Part shown: positions 50,485 to 52,574 of the stretch, piece after piece | Position numbering within the stretch: the first letter of the stretch is position 1 | How the letters are laid out: the number at the start of each line of letters is the position of its first letter | Source of the DNA: Escherichia phage PBECO4 | Reading direction: 5' to 3' (one strand) | Sequence record: KC295538 | DNA: 64,000 nucleotides | The notes under the pieces: generated by a model | What the model was told of the DNA's origin: nothing | Database searches by the model: none | What the model saw: the letters and a program-made list of their open reading frames with translations, nothing else | Made by a program: the position numbers and the translations under genes

Positions 50485-50649
50485 TCATCGGTGCACGATA
50501 TGCATCAGTACTTCTTCGTCGAGTTCAGTACTTAAATATGCTTTGTACATACACTTAACACGTATAACATCCCACATTCTAGAATCTAATGGTAGATAAT
50601 AAGGATTCCACTTTAATTTTTGGCGTTTCATCCACTCTTCATGTGTCAT
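50485..50649 (-). CDS. small protein, MTHEEW family (54 aa)
   Basis: MTHEEWMKRQKLKW...; ATG overlaps stop of upstream paralogue (ATGA). Confidence 0.55.
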   Translation of the reverse strand: MTHEEWMKRQKLKWNPYYLPLDSRMWDVIRVKCMYKAYLSTELDEEVLMHIVHR

Positions 50650-50810
50650 GTTCGTACCATTATTTCAATAAAGAACCACGGATACGCTTCATGGTTTATA
50701 AGTTTATCGTATTCTGCTGGGTCTGACATGATTTCCCAATGATACTTTCTCCAGTTACCGAAACCTGCATATCTAAAATTAATGTCATTCATCCATTCTT
50801 CATGCGTCAT
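50646..50810 (-). CDS. small protein, MTHEEW family (54 aa)
   Basis: MTHEEWMNDINFRYAGFGNW... Confidence 0.55.
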   Translation of the reverse strand: MTHEEWMNDINFRYAGFGNWRKYHWEIMSDPAEYDKLINHEAYPWFFIEIMVRT

Positions 50811-50834
50811 GGTTTTTTAACCTTTAATTAAAAT

Positions 50835-50916
50835 TGGCCCAGGCGACAGGACTCGAACCTGCATACTCCAGTTACTCGATTAACGACGATTTAGAAGACC
50901 GTTGAGATACGCCCGG
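50835..50916 (-). tRNA. tRNA-like element with intact acceptor/T-arm and encoded CCA but non-canonical D region; possible UCU (Arg) anticodon loop
   Basis: Acceptor CCGGGCG/CGCCTGG, T-arm GCAGG-TTCGAGT-CCTGT, stem-loop ACGGT-CUUCUAA-ATCGT; no canonical D-arm can be drawn. Confidence 0.4.
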
Positions 50917-50920
50917 ATTT

Positions 50921-51010
50921 TGGCGGTGAAGGTGAGATTTGAACTCACGGAGGACTTTCGCCCTCGACGGTTTTCAAGACCGTTGCATTAAACCGCTCTG
51001 CCACTTCACC
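50921..51010 (-). tRNA. tRNA-Ser (anticodon UGA), long variable arm, CCA encoded
   Basis: Acceptor GGTGAAG/CTTCACC, anticodon arm ACGGT-CUUGAAA-ACCGT, T-arm GTGAG-TTCAAAT-CTCAC. Confidence 0.75.
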
Positions 51011-51053
51011 AGTACTAATAATTATATCACATCTTTATGTGATGTCCCATTAT

Positions 51054-51326
51054 TTATGATTCAGTTTGAGGATTAAATTTGATAAATTCATCTTTATGTT
51101 CATCTTCAAACGCAATATCTTCTACGTATTCAGGCCAAATCGTAGTGTCTCCTTGATAAAAGCGATAATTATCAAATACTGCACTACGCGTTCTTCCCTG
51201 TTCCCAGCCAATCGTACAGTCATGATATACATCCCCACTACTTGTACGAATACTAATGGTGTCTTGAGTTTCATAAAGAACTTCAATGCGTGTGTTACGA
51301 TTTACGTTGAATTTTTCAAAATGCAT
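51054..51326 (-). CDS. hypothetical protein (90 aa)
   Basis: Track ORF. Confidence 0.6.
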   Translation of the reverse strand: MHFEKFNVNRNTRIEVLYETQDTISIRTSSGDVYHDCTIGWEQGRTRSAVFDNYRFYQGDTTIWPEYVEDIAFEDEHKDEFIKFNPQTES

Positions 51327-51379
51327 AATATTATCCTCATCTAGAACCAGTGATAATCATTATATAATGAATTAATGAT

Positions 51380-51706
51380 TTATGCAAGTGTTTTAGATAC
51401 ACCGACACCAATAATTCCAGTGATATCGATATGGATATTGGCAAGTTGATTACTATCATATGGGTTTGTTTCTGTAATAACCAATGTTGTATCATTGACT
51501 AAAACCACAGTACCTTTTACACGATAACCATGTAGTAGTACTTGAACCTCATCTTCAGGTTTTAATGATTGAATAACTTCAAATAAAGTTGTTTCCATTT
51601 TTTGTATTCCTTGTTTAGTTTTGATTATTTGACTTTCTAAATGCCAGTTCGCATATAAACCAGGGTTTTCTGGTATCCAAAACATATGACCTGAAAAGAT
51701 TTTCAT
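51380..51706 (-). CDS. hypothetical protein (start uncertain, possibly internal ATG ~51598)
   Basis: Track ORF overlaps next gene by 92 nt. Confidence 0.5.
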   Translation of the reverse strand: MKIFSGHMFWIPENPGLYANWHLESQIIKTKQGIQKMETTLFEVIQSLKPEDEVQVLLHGYRVKGTVVLVNDTTLVITETNPYDSNQLANIHIDITGIIGVGVSKTLA

Positions 51707-51815
51707 CTCTTAATATATCATAATGTACCTGACGAATGCCATTCCCAAAGCAGTCATGTTCTTTATGCTGTTTGGACATCCATTCTTCGTGTGTCATTTT
51801 ATGTATCCAGTACAA
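51615..51815 (-). CDS. small protein, MTHEEW family
   Basis: MYWIHKMTHEEWMSKQ...FGNGIRQVHYDILRD. Confidence 0.6.
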   Translation of the reverse strand: MYWIHKMTHEEWMSKQHKEHDCFGNGIRQVHYDILRDENLFRSYVLDTRKPWFICELAFRKSNNQN

Positions 51816-52014
51816 TTAAGTGCTGCATCTCTTCTTTTGTAAAGAAAGCACTGTCATGAACAATAGAACCAGTCTTATCAACTACATAGTACAGGTTTCC
51901 ATATTGTTGAACATCAATTCCGTCAATTTCAATTCGTGGAAAATTTTGGACAATACAGTCTGCACCGAAAACCTCACCAAAAAAGTTTCCTGCTGGATTG
52001 ATAATGACTTTCAT
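51799..52014 (-). CDS. hypothetical protein (71 aa)
   Basis: Track ORF. Confidence 0.55.
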   Translation of the reverse strand: MKVIINPAGNFFGEVFGADCIVQNFPRIEIDGIDVQQYGNLYYVVDKTGSIVHDSAFFTKEEMQHLIVLDT

Positions 52015-52040
52015 ATTAAATCACCTTTATTGTATTTTTG

Positions 52041-52112
52041 AGCAGGTATGGGGATTTGAACCCCACCCCCAGAATCGGAAGTACTGTATGCCGCCATCAA
52101 CACTTTACCTGC
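52041..52112 (-). tRNA. tRNA-Gly (anticodon UCC)
   Basis: Acceptor GCAGGTA/TACCTGC, anticodon loop CUUCCGA, T-arm TGGGG-TTCAAAT-CCCCA; D-stem has G-U pairs. Confidence 0.6.
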
Positions 52113-52138
52113 ACGTAATAACTATTATATTTATCTTA

Positions 52139-52333
52139 CTATTTTTTGTCTCTAATAGCAAGCTCGTAGATGAACCAGTGGTTGGAATCTTCGTCCAAAA
52201 CCAATGATTCGAACGTTTTTTTATCGTTCAAAACATCATAATGGCCTTGGCGTATACCAAATCCAAAATGATCATGTTTATATTTTAGTGACTCTATCCA
52301 TTCTTCATGTGTCATTTTATGTATCCAGTTCAA
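52139..52333 (-). CDS. small protein, MTHEEW family
   Basis: MNWIHKMTHEEWIESLKYKHDHFGFGIRQGHYDVLND. Confidence 0.6.
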   Translation of the reverse strand: MNWIHKMTHEEWIESLKYKHDHFGFGIRQGHYDVLNDKKTFESLVLDEDSNHWFIYELAIRDKK

Positions 52334-52394
52334 TTAAGTGTTTCATTTATTCTTCTGTAAAGAAAGCATTGCAATGGACAATGGAAAAGGTTAT

Positions 52395-52574
52395 TATATT
52401 TTTTTGTCTCTAACCGCAAGCTCATAGATGAACCAACGATTTCCATTCTCATCTAGTACATATGATTCGAACTTATATTTGTCTCGTAAAATATCGAAAT
52501 GACCATCAATAAATCCATTTCCAAACTGGTCATAACGTTTTTTCATCATTGCCATCCATTCTTCATGTGTCATC
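52395..52574 (-). CDS. small protein, MTHEEW family (59 aa)
   Basis: MTHEEWMAMMKKRYDQFGNGFIDGHFDILRD; below track size cut-off. Confidence 0.55.

What the first reader, a model, noticed from the sequence alone, without database searches (positions are those of the whole stretch)
50485..52574. Family of small MTHEEW proteins interleaved with tRNA genes, two joined by an ATGA overlap
Five ORFs of 54-66 aa begin with or contain MTHEEW(M/I) and continue with a conserved FG(N)G..xHYD(I/V)L core. They sit between tRNA genes, and the pair at 50485-50810 overlaps stop and start (ATGA), suggesting translational coupling. Three fall below the usual ORF size cut-off.
Basis: seen in the sequence. Interest (0 to 1): 0.55.

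Follow-up and report, generated by a model that had tools for sequence, protein, structure and literature searches.

The report
Small helical phage protein family near tRNAs
The MTHEEW ORFs are real, conserved genes of a small protein family found only in 121Q-like jumbo coliphages and a few uncultured relatives; the family grows and shrinks by tandem duplication beside the phage tRNA genes, its function is unknown, and it most likely acts on the host early in infection.

Summary
Five minus-strand ORFs start with MTHEEW: a 50485-50649, b 50646-50810, c 51615-51797, d 52139-52315 and e 52394-52573. The DNA pattern occurs 5 times against 0 expected. A sixth, distant paralogue f (52570-52755) overlaps e by a second ATGA.

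The window is an Asteriusvirus (121Q/SP27-like jumbo phage). The genes belong to PHROG 10970 (f to PHROG 31562), both of unknown function. Ortholog dN/dS is 0.10-0.52, so they are translated and under purifying selection.

The family is very narrow: 21 clusters among 1.84 billion representative proteins, all 43-64 aa, with no fusions. Copy number differs between close strains, and uncultured relatives carry 13-20 or more tandem copies, always beside the tRNA block.

AlphaFold gives a confident four-helix fold (pLDDT 90) with no match in PDB or BFVD outside the family. MTHEEW fits a helix N-capping box plus hydrophobic staple, which is a fold element rather than a signal.

The proteins are absent from the phAPEC6 virion proteome.

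My best reading (inferred) is non-structural accessory proteins, co-transcribed with the tRNAs from sigma70-like promoters, that bind host or defence targets. The tRNA link is explained by synteny and operon structure and is not shown to be biochemical. Interest is moderate.

The parts
52570..52755 (-). Gene f, 61 aa (MQPKTFDEWF...). Distant paralogue of the family (PHROG 31562). Its stop overlaps the start of e (ATGA).
   Evidence: PHROG hit at E 3.8e-44. It joins the family in an iterated HMM search at E 5e-17. hhalign against the MTH subfamily gives probability 86%, E 5.5e-6, over 56 collinear columns. dN/dS is 0.11 against 121Q.
52394..52573 (-). Gene e, 59 aa, MTHEEWMAMMKKRYDQFGNGFIDGHFDILRD...
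   Evidence: PHROG 10970, E 1.4e-29. dN/dS is 0.26. The AlphaFold2 model has pLDDT 90 and four helices.
52320..52391 (-). Relic of the 3' end of a duplicated copy of the 71-aa gene. It is part of a 91-nt direct repeat (52296-52386 against 51778-51868) that also covers the 5' ends of d and c.
   Evidence: the repeat finder family D1, 87% identity. tblastn matches residues 48-71 of the 71-aa protein at 71% identity.
52139..52315 (-). Gene d, 58 aa from the ATG at 52315 (MTHEEWIESLKYKHDHFGFGIRQGHYDVLND...).
   Evidence: G17 annotates the ATG start. dN/dS is 0.20-0.24.
52124..52152 (-). Sigma70-like promoter candidate (GAGACA-17-TATAAT) just upstream of tRNA-Gly, inside the 3' end of d.
   Evidence: This is a consensus match only.
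52040..52112 (-). tRNA-Gly(UCC).
   Evidence: ARAGORN. Rfam 41.7 bits.
51799..52014 (-). 71-aa gene (PHROG 25670, unknown function) immediately upstream of c.
51615..51797 (-). Gene c, 60 aa from the ATG at 51797 (MTHEEWMSKQHKEHDCFGNGIRQVHYDILRD...).
   Evidence: dN/dS is 0.44.
51021..51048 (-). Sigma70-like promoter candidate (GGGACA-16-TATAAT with TG) upstream of tRNA-Ser. It would drive the unit tRNA-Ser, tRNA-like element, b, a.
   Evidence: This is a consensus match only.
50921..51010 (-). tRNA-Ser(UGA).
   Evidence: 60.1 bits.
50838..50916 (-). Degenerate tRNA-like element directly upstream of b.
   Evidence: Rfam tRNA match at 29.3 bits, just at threshold, with the D-arm missing. ARAGORN does not call it. 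121Q and Turkey3 carry the same element with a single-base difference, and G17 has a true tRNA-Arg(UCU) in its place.
50646..50810 (-). Gene b, 54 aa (MTHEEWMNDINFRYAGFGNWRKYHWEIM...). Its stop overlaps the start of a (ATGA).
   Evidence: dN/dS is 0.15-0.52.
50485..50649 (-). Gene a, 54 aa (MTHEEWMKRQKLKWNPYYLPLDSRMWDVIRVK...).
   Evidence: dN/dS is 0.10-0.31.
50445..50472 (-). Strong sigma70-like promoter (TTGACT-16-TATAAT) with TTCAGTACTG in the spacer. It starts the next transcription unit and so marks the 3' limit of the a/b unit.

Best explanation
These are six paralogous genes for cytoplasmic, non-structural proteins of 6.8-7.5 kDa. The proteins are aromatic-rich and fold into four helices. 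The family is an orphan one, confined to Asteriusvirus (121Q/SP27-like) jumbo phages and a few uncultured relatives. SHOWN: the genes are conserved and under purifying selection. The family evolves by birth and death, through tandem duplication of units of about 161-180 nt joined by ATGA, unit loss, pseudogenisation and divergence. Copy number runs from 5-9 in cultured strains to 13-20 or more in uncultured relatives. The array always lies in the plastic island that also holds the phage tRNA genes. INFERRED (structure): MTHEEW is the N-terminal cap of helix 1. Thr2 is the N-cap and Glu5 the N3 residue of a capping box. Met1 (N') and Trp6 (N4) form a hydrophobic staple. The motif is therefore a fold determinant and not a signal peptide or a nucleic-acid element. 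INFERRED (expression): genes b/a and c are co-transcribed with the tRNA that precedes them, from sigma70-like promoters used by host RNA polymerase right after infection. They are released by tRNA processing, and within arrays they are translated by termination-reinitiation at ATGA junctions. INFERRED (function, the weakest step): the paralogues share a stable mini-scaffold with variable surfaces, and each binds and neutralises or redirects a host protein (host takeover or counter-defence). Duplication and divergence track variable host targets. The nearly identical 5' ends also serve as recombination substrates that change copy number and can carry neighbouring tRNA genes in or out.
For: Real genes. 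One PHROG is matched end to end. The MTHEEW DNA pattern occurs 5 times against 0 expected. Synonymous variation inside the motif (ACA/ACG/ACT, CAT/CAC, GAA/GAG) leaves the peptide invariant. Ortholog dN/dS is 0.10-0.52. All 134 iterated-HMM hits in 18 sources (the window plus 17 loci) fall on the coding strand of their locus.

Narrow orphan family. There are 21 clusters among 1.84e9 representative proteins, all 43-64 aa. A search of 5.8e9 proteins with a broad profile found nothing further. Pfam, NCBIfam, PADLOC and a PDB sequence profile gave no hits.

Cap motif. Among 95 unique members, Thr2 is present in 85%, Glu5 in 72% (plus 19% Asp/Gln) and Trp6 in 86%, whereas His3 reaches only 60% and Glu4 54%. 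The modelled helix starts at residue 3.

Birth and death. Most relatives carry b-b2-a, the window carries b-a, and L043 carries b2-a. 121Q has a frameshifted copy. A 91-nt repeat includes a relic of the upstream gene. Tandem arrays hold 20 members in L006, 20 in L017, 15 in L014 and 13 in L015. The b/b2 paralogue pair has dN/dS 0.72, against 0.15 for b orthologs.

Expression context. Sigma70-like hexamers lie about 10 nt upstream of tRNA-Gly, tRNA-Ser(UGA) and tRNA-Ser(GCU), and all genes run in one direction. Among adjacent family genes, 34 pairs overlap by 4 nt and about 30 more lie 0-4 nt apart.

Non-structural. None of gp094c-096c or gp099c-101c is among the 62 virion proteins of phAPEC6, although a 4.7-kDa protein was detected there (PMC7247149).
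Against: There is no direct evidence of transcription timing, translation or any binding partner. The promoter calls are consensus matches, and their total number in the region (43) is no greater than in shuffled sequence (42.0 +/- 6.6). Genes f-e-d have no recognisable promoter of their own and follow a terminator-bounded block, so 'early' expression is uncertain for them. The anti-host role rests on analogy with plastic-region accessory genes, not on homology. Charge is not uniform (pI 4.7-7.9 in the window and 4.4-9.8 in L006), so no single mode such as DNA mimicry is indicated. His3, His25 and Arg55 are subfamily-specific conserved residues that the capping explanation does not cover. If methionine aminopeptidase removes Met1, as expected with Thr at position 2, the hydrophobic-staple part of the motif would not form.
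Confidence: 0.45

Rival explanations
1. The function is linked to tRNA. The small proteins would act together with the neighbouring phage tRNAs. For example, they could inhibit host anticodon nucleases or other tRNA-targeting defences, or act as chaperones or regulators of phage tRNA maturation. The island as a whole would then be a countermeasure against tRNA-directed immunity.
For: The arrays lie directly upstream of, or interleaved with, the tRNA block, in the same orientation, in every lineage that has the family. This includes lineages whose flanking proteins are only about 30-37% identical. Genes b/a and c appear to share transcription units with tRNAs. The phAPEC6 authors note that these phages may counter the Prr anticodon-nuclease system (PMC7247149).
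Against: All carriers belong to one phage clade, so the adjacency is inherited synteny and not repeated independent association. RaK2 keeps the tRNA block and the neighbouring 71-aa gene but has no family member. The set of tRNAs next to the genes differs between strains with no matching change in the proteins. There is no RNA-binding fold, no uniformly basic charge and no similarity to known nuclease inhibitors.
Confidence: 0.15
2. The proteins are packaged internal or ejected proteins. The invariant N-terminus would be a capsid-targeting or processing signal, as in the T4 internal proteins IPI-III, which share a conserved N-terminal targeting sequence on divergent bodies. The proteins would be injected with the DNA to disarm the host.
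For: The first six residues are invariant while the rest diverges to about 25% identity. The genes form polymorphic, multi-copy sets in a plastic region near tRNA genes, which from memory resembles the T-even IP locus.
Against: The proteins are not among the 62 virion proteins of phAPEC6, even though a 4.7-kDa protein was detected there. Homology extends over the whole length and is not limited to the N-terminus. There is no (L/I)-x-E protease site after the motif (seen in the sequence). The modelled N-terminus is the start of a packed helix with pLDDT 94.
Confidence: 0.05
3. The paralogues are subunits of one hetero-oligomeric assembly, such as a small helical-bundle complex. Duplication would supply different subunits, and ATGA coupling would set their stoichiometry. 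They would not be independent binders.
For: Tight translational coupling is frequent in the arrays. The proteins are small, aromatic-rich and helical, which suits bundle formation. The a, b and b2 types are each conserved as distinct orthologs across strains.
Against: Copy number and composition vary between closely related viable phages: b-a, b2-a and b-b2-a all occur, and c, d or e can each be present or absent. A fixed-stoichiometry complex should not tolerate this. A 4-nt overlap is the commonest gene junction in this genome in any case.
Confidence: 0.12
4. The ORFs carry no selected protein function. The conserved 5' sequence would instead be a DNA or RNA element, such as a recombination site, a processing site or a translation enhancer.
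For: The 21-23 nt at the 5' ends are the most similar DNA segment among the copies (family D2). They plausibly mediate unequal crossing-over.
Against: Synonymous substitutions occur inside the motif while the peptide stays invariant. dN/dS is well below 1 over whole genes. The reading frames stay open and the length is kept at 48-64 aa in 95 unique members. The predicted fold is confident.
Confidence: 0.03

Closest known systems
PHROG 10970 (and PHROG 31562 for gene f), phage orthologous groups of unknown function
   Same: All five MTHEEW proteins match PHROG 10970 over its full 56-position profile (E 1e-25 to 1e-29). Gene f matches PHROG 31562. The same genes are annotated 'hypothetical protein' in about 35 GenBank Asteriusvirus genomes.
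   Different: Nothing differs; this is the family itself. New here are the link between the two PHROGs, the large tandem arrays in uncultured relatives, the predicted fold and the reading of the motif.
Small ORFan genes of the plastic ('hyperplastic') regions of T4-like phages, which also hold tRNA genes and homing endonucleases (recalled from memory: Comeau et al. 2007; Miller et al. 2003)
   Same: The genes are small and lineage-specific, and their presence varies between close strains. They lie in one orientation among tRNA genes, and HNH endonuclease genes lie nearby in relatives. They are probably early accessory genes.
   Different: There is no sequence or fold relationship. Here a single family is amplified up to 20 or more times in tandem, which is unusual for T4-type plastic regions.
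T4 internal proteins IPI/IPII/IPIII, which share an N-terminal capsid-targeting sequence (from memory)
   Same: They form a polymorphic set of small proteins that share an invariant N-terminal stretch. IPI* is an injected anti-restriction factor, which shows that such sets can serve counter-defence.
   Different: The MTHEEW proteins are homologous over their whole length, lack the (L/I)xE cleavage site and are not found in the phAPEC6 virion proteome.
Gene 'accordion' expansions of viral host-antagonist genes, such as poxvirus K3L (from memory: Elde et al. 2012)
   Same: Tandem copy number varies between close strains. Expansion reaches 13-20 copies in some lineages and is followed by divergence and pseudogenisation.
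   Different: No host target is known and no selection experiment exists. The copies here are old and diverged (25-60% identity), not recent identical amplifications.
Helix N-terminal capping box (S/T-x-x-E) with hydrophobic staple (from memory: Harper & Rose 1993; Munoz, Blanco & Serrano 1995)
   Same: The residues M1-T2-H3-E4-E5-W6 map onto the positions N'-Ncap-N1-N2-N3-N4. The most conserved positions are Ncap, N3 and N4, and the modelled helix begins at residue 3.
   Different: This is a structural motif and not a protein family. It does not explain why His3 is conserved in the main subfamily.

Membership tests
PHROG 10970 (unknown function) | Significant full-length match to the family profile HMM | tested here: met
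   Genes a-e give E 2.2e-26, 6e-28, 1.3e-25, 1.1e-29 and 1.4e-29, covering profile positions 1-55/56.
PHROG 10970 superfamily, including gene f (PHROG 31562) | Detectable homology between f-type and MTH-type members, the same length, and the same position in the array | tested here: met
   Iterated HMM gives E 5e-17. hhalign gives probability 86%, E 5.5e-6, over 56 collinear columns. Gene f is coupled to e by ATGA. The hhalign probability is moderate, so this is probable but not certain.
T4-type internal proteins (capsid-targeted, injected) | Presence in the mature virion | tested here: not met
   The phAPEC6 orthologs gp094c-096c and gp099c-101c are absent from the 62-protein virion proteome. 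This is a negative proteomics result, so it is not absolute.
T4-type internal proteins (capsid-targeted, injected) | N-terminal targeting peptide ending in a prohead-protease site (L/I)-x-E, on otherwise unrelated bodies | tested here: not met
   No (L/I)xE follows the motif, and the bodies are homologous throughout.
Small HTH DNA-binding regulators (Cro/Xis/MerR-like) | Helix-turn-helix fold | tested here: not met
Toxin-antitoxin or known defence-system components | Match to a known toxin, antitoxin or defence profile | tested here: not met
   PADLOC, Pfam and NCBIfam give no significant hits.
Known anti-defence proteins (Acr, Ocr/Arn DNA mimics, Tad, Gad and others) | Homology to a characterised inhibitor, or a demonstrated inhibitory activity | not testable with these tools
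   No anti-defence library is available here. There is no PDB sequence or fold match. Charge is not uniformly acidic, as it would be for a DNA mimic.
ATCUN (N-terminal X-X-His) metal-binding motif | Free N-terminal amine with His at position 3 of the mature protein | not testable with these tools
   M-T-H fits only if Met1 is retained. With Thr at position 2, Met excision is expected (established knowledge), which would put His at position 2. His3 is present in 60% of members.
Helix capping box plus hydrophobic staple (structural motif) | S/T/N/D at the N-cap, E/D/Q at N3, hydrophobic residues at N' and N4, and the helix starting right after the N-cap | tested here: met
   Position frequencies among 95 members are T/S/N at position 2 in 90, E/D/Q at position 5 in 86, and W/F/I/V/Y at position 6 in 94. 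The pattern occurs within the first 10 residues in 82 of 95. DSSP places the helix at residues 3-14. This rests on a model and not on a solved structure.

The most novel reading that the evidence does not exclude
The array and the tRNA genes would form one functional island against tRNA-directed host immunity. The phage tRNAs would replace cleaved host tRNAs. The diversified MTHEEW mini-proteins, which have a new four-helix fold, would be a library of inhibitors of anticodon nucleases or other early defence effectors. They would be expressed from the same strong tRNA promoters, and recombination between their conserved 5' ends would expand, shrink and reshuffle them together with the tRNAs.
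Probability: 0.12. Interest if true: 0.75.

Novelty: new member of a known kind. Interest (0 to 1): 0.38.

Why it matters
Most jumbo-phage genes have no known function, and 83% are unknown in phAPEC6. This family shows clear signs of function. It is under purifying selection, it has a confident fold not seen elsewhere, and it undergoes repeated tandem expansion and strain-level turnover. It also lies in the island that carries the phage tRNAs. If the proteins prove to be host or defence antagonists, they would add a new small inhibitor fold. They would also be an example of accordion-type evolution in a phage, and could explain why tRNA content differs between closely related therapeutic coliphages. 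If they do not, the family remains an ordinary uncharacterised accessory family, already catalogued as a PHROG.

Tried and rejected
1. Pfam, NCBIfam and PADLOC scans of all six proteins gave nothing significant.
2. A PDB sequence-profile search gave only noise, E >= 1.5.
4. The search for related loci with the family alignment failed, because no stretch was conserved enough.
5. DNA-pattern scans for the motif were largely unproductive. IMG/VR returned 121Q itself plus an unrelated 51-aa ORF that also starts with MTHEEWM. The metagenome scan returned 120 contigs, of which only two (L043, L128) hold real members. The motif alone is therefore not diagnostic.
6. The syntenic tRNA region of RaK2 was searched with the iterated HMM and holds no member.
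7. I considered that the conserved 5' end is a nucleic-acid element. I rejected this because synonymous changes occur inside the motif.
8. I considered that window gene b is a b/b2 recombinant. The informative sites are almost all b-type, so b2 is simply absent.
9. I considered a packaged internal protein. This is disfavoured by the phAPEC6 virion proteome.
10. Literature searches found nothing on the family. There were no hits for MTHEEW, no Asteriusvirus transcriptome, and no mention in the Sharanji or phAPEC6 papers.
11. The association of His3 with His25 (Fisher p 1e-7) is confounded by shared ancestry. I record it only as a subfamily signature.
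Full report
**What the window is**

The region 50400-52800 is 99.4-99.7% identical to Salmonella phages SD-1_S14, SD-2_S15, SD-6_S16 and SD-15_S21 and to Escherichia phage SP27. It is 86-98% identical to about 30 other Asteriusvirus jumbo phages of roughly 350 kb, including 121Q, phAPEC6, G17 and Sharanji. The window has 34% G+C.

**Checking the observation**

- Five ORFs on the minus strand begin with, or contain, MTHEEW(M/I): a 50485-50649, b 50646-50810, c 51615-51815, d 52139-52333 and e 52394-52573.
- The back-translated pattern ATGACNCAYGARGARTGG occurs exactly five times in 64 kb, at these starts. It occurred zero times in 100 shuffles.
- For c and d the ORF listing start is an upstream TTG. 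The ATG of MTHEEW is the start annotated in phage G17 and matches the starts of a, b and e.
- b and a overlap by ATGA.
- ARAGORN and Rfam place tRNA-Ser(UGA) at 50921-51010 and tRNA-Gly(UCC) at 52040-52112, between the ORFs. tRNA-Thr, Asn, Met and Ser(GCU) lie at 47837-49198.
- The 'FGNG..HYDIL' core holds for c, d and e, is weaker in b and is absent in a.
- An HMM built from the five proteins finds no further copy in the six-frame translation of the window.
- An HMM iterated over related loci adds a sixth gene, f (52570-52755, MQPKTFDEWF...), at E 5e-17.
- Profile-profile comparison of f-type against MTH-type members gives probability 86%, E 5.5e-6, over 56 collinear columns.
- f overlaps e by a second ATGA.

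**Are they genes?**

- All five match PHROG 10970 (unknown function) over the full profile, and f matches PHROG 31562.
- tblastn finds orthologs in 35 phage records, all Escherichia or Salmonella asteriusviruses.
- Nei-Gojobori dN/dS between the window genes and their orthologs in 121Q, G17, Turkey3, JNE01 and a metagenomic relative is 0.10-0.52, with dS up to 1.45.
- Within the invariant MTHEEW motif the codons vary synonymously among 32 distinct gene sequences: ACA 23 / ACG 8 / ACT 1, CAT 26 / CAC 6, and GAA 27 / GAG 5 at codon 5. The constraint therefore acts on the peptide and not on the DNA.
- All 134 hits of the iterated HMM in 18 sources (the window plus 17 loci) lie on the coding strand of their locus. 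No hit fell on the opposite strand.

I conclude that these are translated, selected genes. No direct translation data exist.

**How wide is the family?**

- A profile search of 1.84 billion representative proteins finds 21 clusters, all 43-64 aa.
- Word-indexed searches of 5.8 billion proteins, with a single member, with a 26-sequence profile and with a 58-sequence profile, find only the same small proteins. None is fused to another domain and none has an informative name.
- Pfam, NCBIfam, PADLOC and a PDB sequence profile give nothing.
- The syntenic tRNA region of the sister genus Alcyoneusvirus (RaK2) has the neighbouring 71-aa gene but no family member.

**Arrays and turnover**

- Most asteriusviruses have three ATGA-coupled 165-nt genes (b, b2, a) where the window has two.
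- The window's b is b-type throughout, so b2 is simply absent. Metagenome contig L043 has b2-a instead.
- 121Q carries a frameshifted copy, genes 115/116. JNE01 has nine members.
- A 91-nt direct repeat (51778-51868 and 52296-52386, 87% identical) covers the 5' ends of c and d plus 68 nt upstream. Upstream of d, that stretch is a decayed 3' end of the 71-aa gene that precedes c. This is the footprint of a segmental duplication.
- In contig L128, e is followed directly by c. Gene d, tRNA-Gly and the 71-aa gene are missing. Recombination between those repeats would give this result, but so could an assembly artefact.
- Four uncultured relatives carry long tandem arrays: 20 detected members in L006 (among 26 back-to-back ORFs of 50-64 aa), 20 in L017, 15 in L014 and 13 in L015. 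L006 shares only about 30-37% protein identity with both 121Q-like and RaK2-like phages.
- In every case the array lies directly upstream of, or interleaved with, the tRNA block and in the same orientation.
- Among adjacent family genes, 34 pairs overlap by 4 nt and about 30 more lie 0-4 nt apart.
- The b/b2 paralogue pair has dN/dS 0.72, against 0.15 for b orthologs.

**Structure and the motif**

- With a 25-sequence alignment, AlphaFold2 gives pLDDT 90.1 and pTM 0.68 for protein e, with helices at residues 3-14, 23-30, 32-40 and 46-54. An 8-sequence alignment gave pLDDT 75 with the same topology.
- Among 95 unique members the frequencies are Met1 100%, Thr2 85%, His3 60%, Glu4 54%, Glu5 72% (plus 19% Asp/Gln) and Trp6 86%.
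- Mapped onto a helix that begins at residue 3, these residues occupy N' (Met1), N-cap (Thr2), N3 (Glu5) and N4 (Trp6). That is the classical capping box (S/T-x-x-E) combined with a hydrophobic staple. This is established structural knowledge that I recall from memory, applied here by inference.
- The other best-conserved positions form an aromatic and aliphatic core: residues 21, 26, 29, 35, 52 and 53.
- His3, His25 and Arg55 mark the main subfamily. His25 occurs almost only together with His3 (31 of 32 cases). Shared ancestry confounds this association, and I leave it unexplained.
- The proteins are aromatic-rich (13-22% F+W+Y). Their pI ranges from 4.7 to 7.9 in the window and from 4.4 to 9.8 in L006.

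**Expression context**

- All genes from about 47.8 to 54.6 kb are on the minus strand.
- Sigma70-like hexamer pairs lie about 10 nt upstream of each tRNA or tRNA group: 52152-52124 before tRNA-Gly, 51048-51021 before tRNA-Ser(UGA), and 49233-49205 before tRNA-Ser(GCU).
- Genes b/a, and the 71-aa gene plus c, would therefore be the distal parts of tRNA-led transcripts.
- These are consensus matches, and their total number is no greater than in shuffled sequence. The early timing is therefore an inference.
- Genes f-e-d follow four larger unknown genes that sit behind a strong terminator near 54660-54700.
- These phages use the host RNA polymerase together with a phage sigma factor (PMC11895373).
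- The family orthologs in phAPEC6 (gp094c-096c and gp099c-101c) are not among the 62 virion proteins found by ESI-MS/MS, although a 4.66-kDa protein was detected there (PMC7247149).

**Interpretation**

Shown: this is a selected, lineage-restricted, birth-and-death multigene family of small helical proteins, located in the plastic tRNA island.

Inferred: the family consists of non-structural accessory proteins, expressed with the tRNAs, that share a stable scaffold with variable surfaces aimed at host or defence proteins. I give this mechanism a confidence of about 0.45.

Rivals:
- A tRNA-linked function: 0.15. This is supported only by conserved adjacency within one clade.
- Hetero-oligomer subunits: 0.12. 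Strain-level variation in composition argues against it.
- Packaged internal proteins: 0.05. The virion proteome argues against it.
- A non-coding element: 0.03. Selection on the reading frame refutes it.

All neighbouring genes are also of unknown function, and no paper mentions the family.

**Verdict**

The family is real but already catalogued as PHROGs of unknown function and as 'hypothetical protein' in GenBank. It is an uncharacterised member of a familiar kind, namely phage accessory ORFan families in plastic regions. Three features make it moderately interesting: an orphan high-confidence fold, very narrow distribution, and tandem expansion to 20 or more copies beside the tRNA block. 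Interest 0.38.

Noticed in passing
window, 19 sites; on the minus strand at 50451-50460, 50042-50051, 49972-49981, 49212-49221, 48418-48427 and 48297-48306: The decamer TTCAGTACTG (core palindrome CAGTACTG) occurs 19 times, against 0.16 expected. In this region it sits in the spacer of sigma70-like promoters, as in TTGACT-AAATAGTTCAGTACTG-TATAAT. It looks like a phage-specific promoter or operator element.
   Followed up: partly
window 50838-50916 (-): A degenerate tRNA-like element lies between tRNA-Ser(UGA) and gene b. Rfam scores it 29.3 bits with the D-arm missing and a long insert, and ARAGORN does not call it. 121Q and Turkey3 carry the same element with a single-base difference (121Q annotates it as tRNA-Leu(taa)), and G17 has a true tRNA-Arg(UCU) in its place.
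   Followed up: partly
window 51778-51868 and 52296-52386; locus L128: A 91-nt direct repeat (87% identical) spans the starts of c and d and includes a relic of the 3' end of the 71-aa gene upstream of d. Metagenome contig L128 lacks d, tRNA-Gly and the 71-aa gene between these repeats. This suggests that recombination between paralogues removes tRNA genes, although an assembly artefact is also possible.
   Followed up: partly
window 51380-51706 (-): The 108-aa ORF overlaps the 3' end of gene c by 92 nt. Its likely true start is the ATG at 51598, giving 72 aa (METTLFEV...), as annotated in G17. phAPEC6 annotates the long form and omits gene c.
   Followed up: partly
window 49243-49602 and 54253-54645 (-); possibly 50060-50413 and 53146-53649: A possible second paralogous family of 117-167-aa proteins shares a C-terminal (S/T)EE(D/E)EFQ motif. 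BLASTP gives E 4e-4 for one pair and is not significant for another. All are PHROGs of unknown function.
   Followed up: partly
window about 54660-54700 (-): A strong intrinsic-terminator hairpin (ACCCAGT-CAAGT-ACTGGGT followed by T7) lies only about 15 nt upstream of the start of the 130-aa gene. The block that runs down to f-e-d therefore has no obvious promoter of its own.
   Followed up: no
L002 (121Q) genes 115/116, L002 about 7974-8171: A family member is split by a frameshift in 121Q (MTHEEWLVQTEHLVIASMKF, then NEQLMHLVSNKAYYDAFFGK...). The same gene is intact in JNE01 (MTHKEWLVQTKHSVIPGMKFWNEQLMHF...). It is a pseudogenised paralogue annotated as two tiny CDSs.
   Followed up: partly
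L012 3174-3326 (IMG/VR contig IMGVR_UViG_3300040807_000146): An unrelated 51-aa ORF also begins with MTHEEWM (MTHEEWMTSTVYEAMDEEHRQ...) but does not match the family HMM. N-termini of the M-T-x-x-E-W/L type recur elsewhere too. For example, the 130-aa gene at window 54645 starts with MTESELHE. This fits a generic helix-capping role.
   Followed up: no
L003 3960-4484 and L005 14640-15164; L006 12159-12716: In relatives, HNH homing-endonuclease or T5orf172-domain genes lie inside the same tRNA island. The window has none there. This is further evidence that the island is a hotspot for insertion and loss.
   Followed up: no
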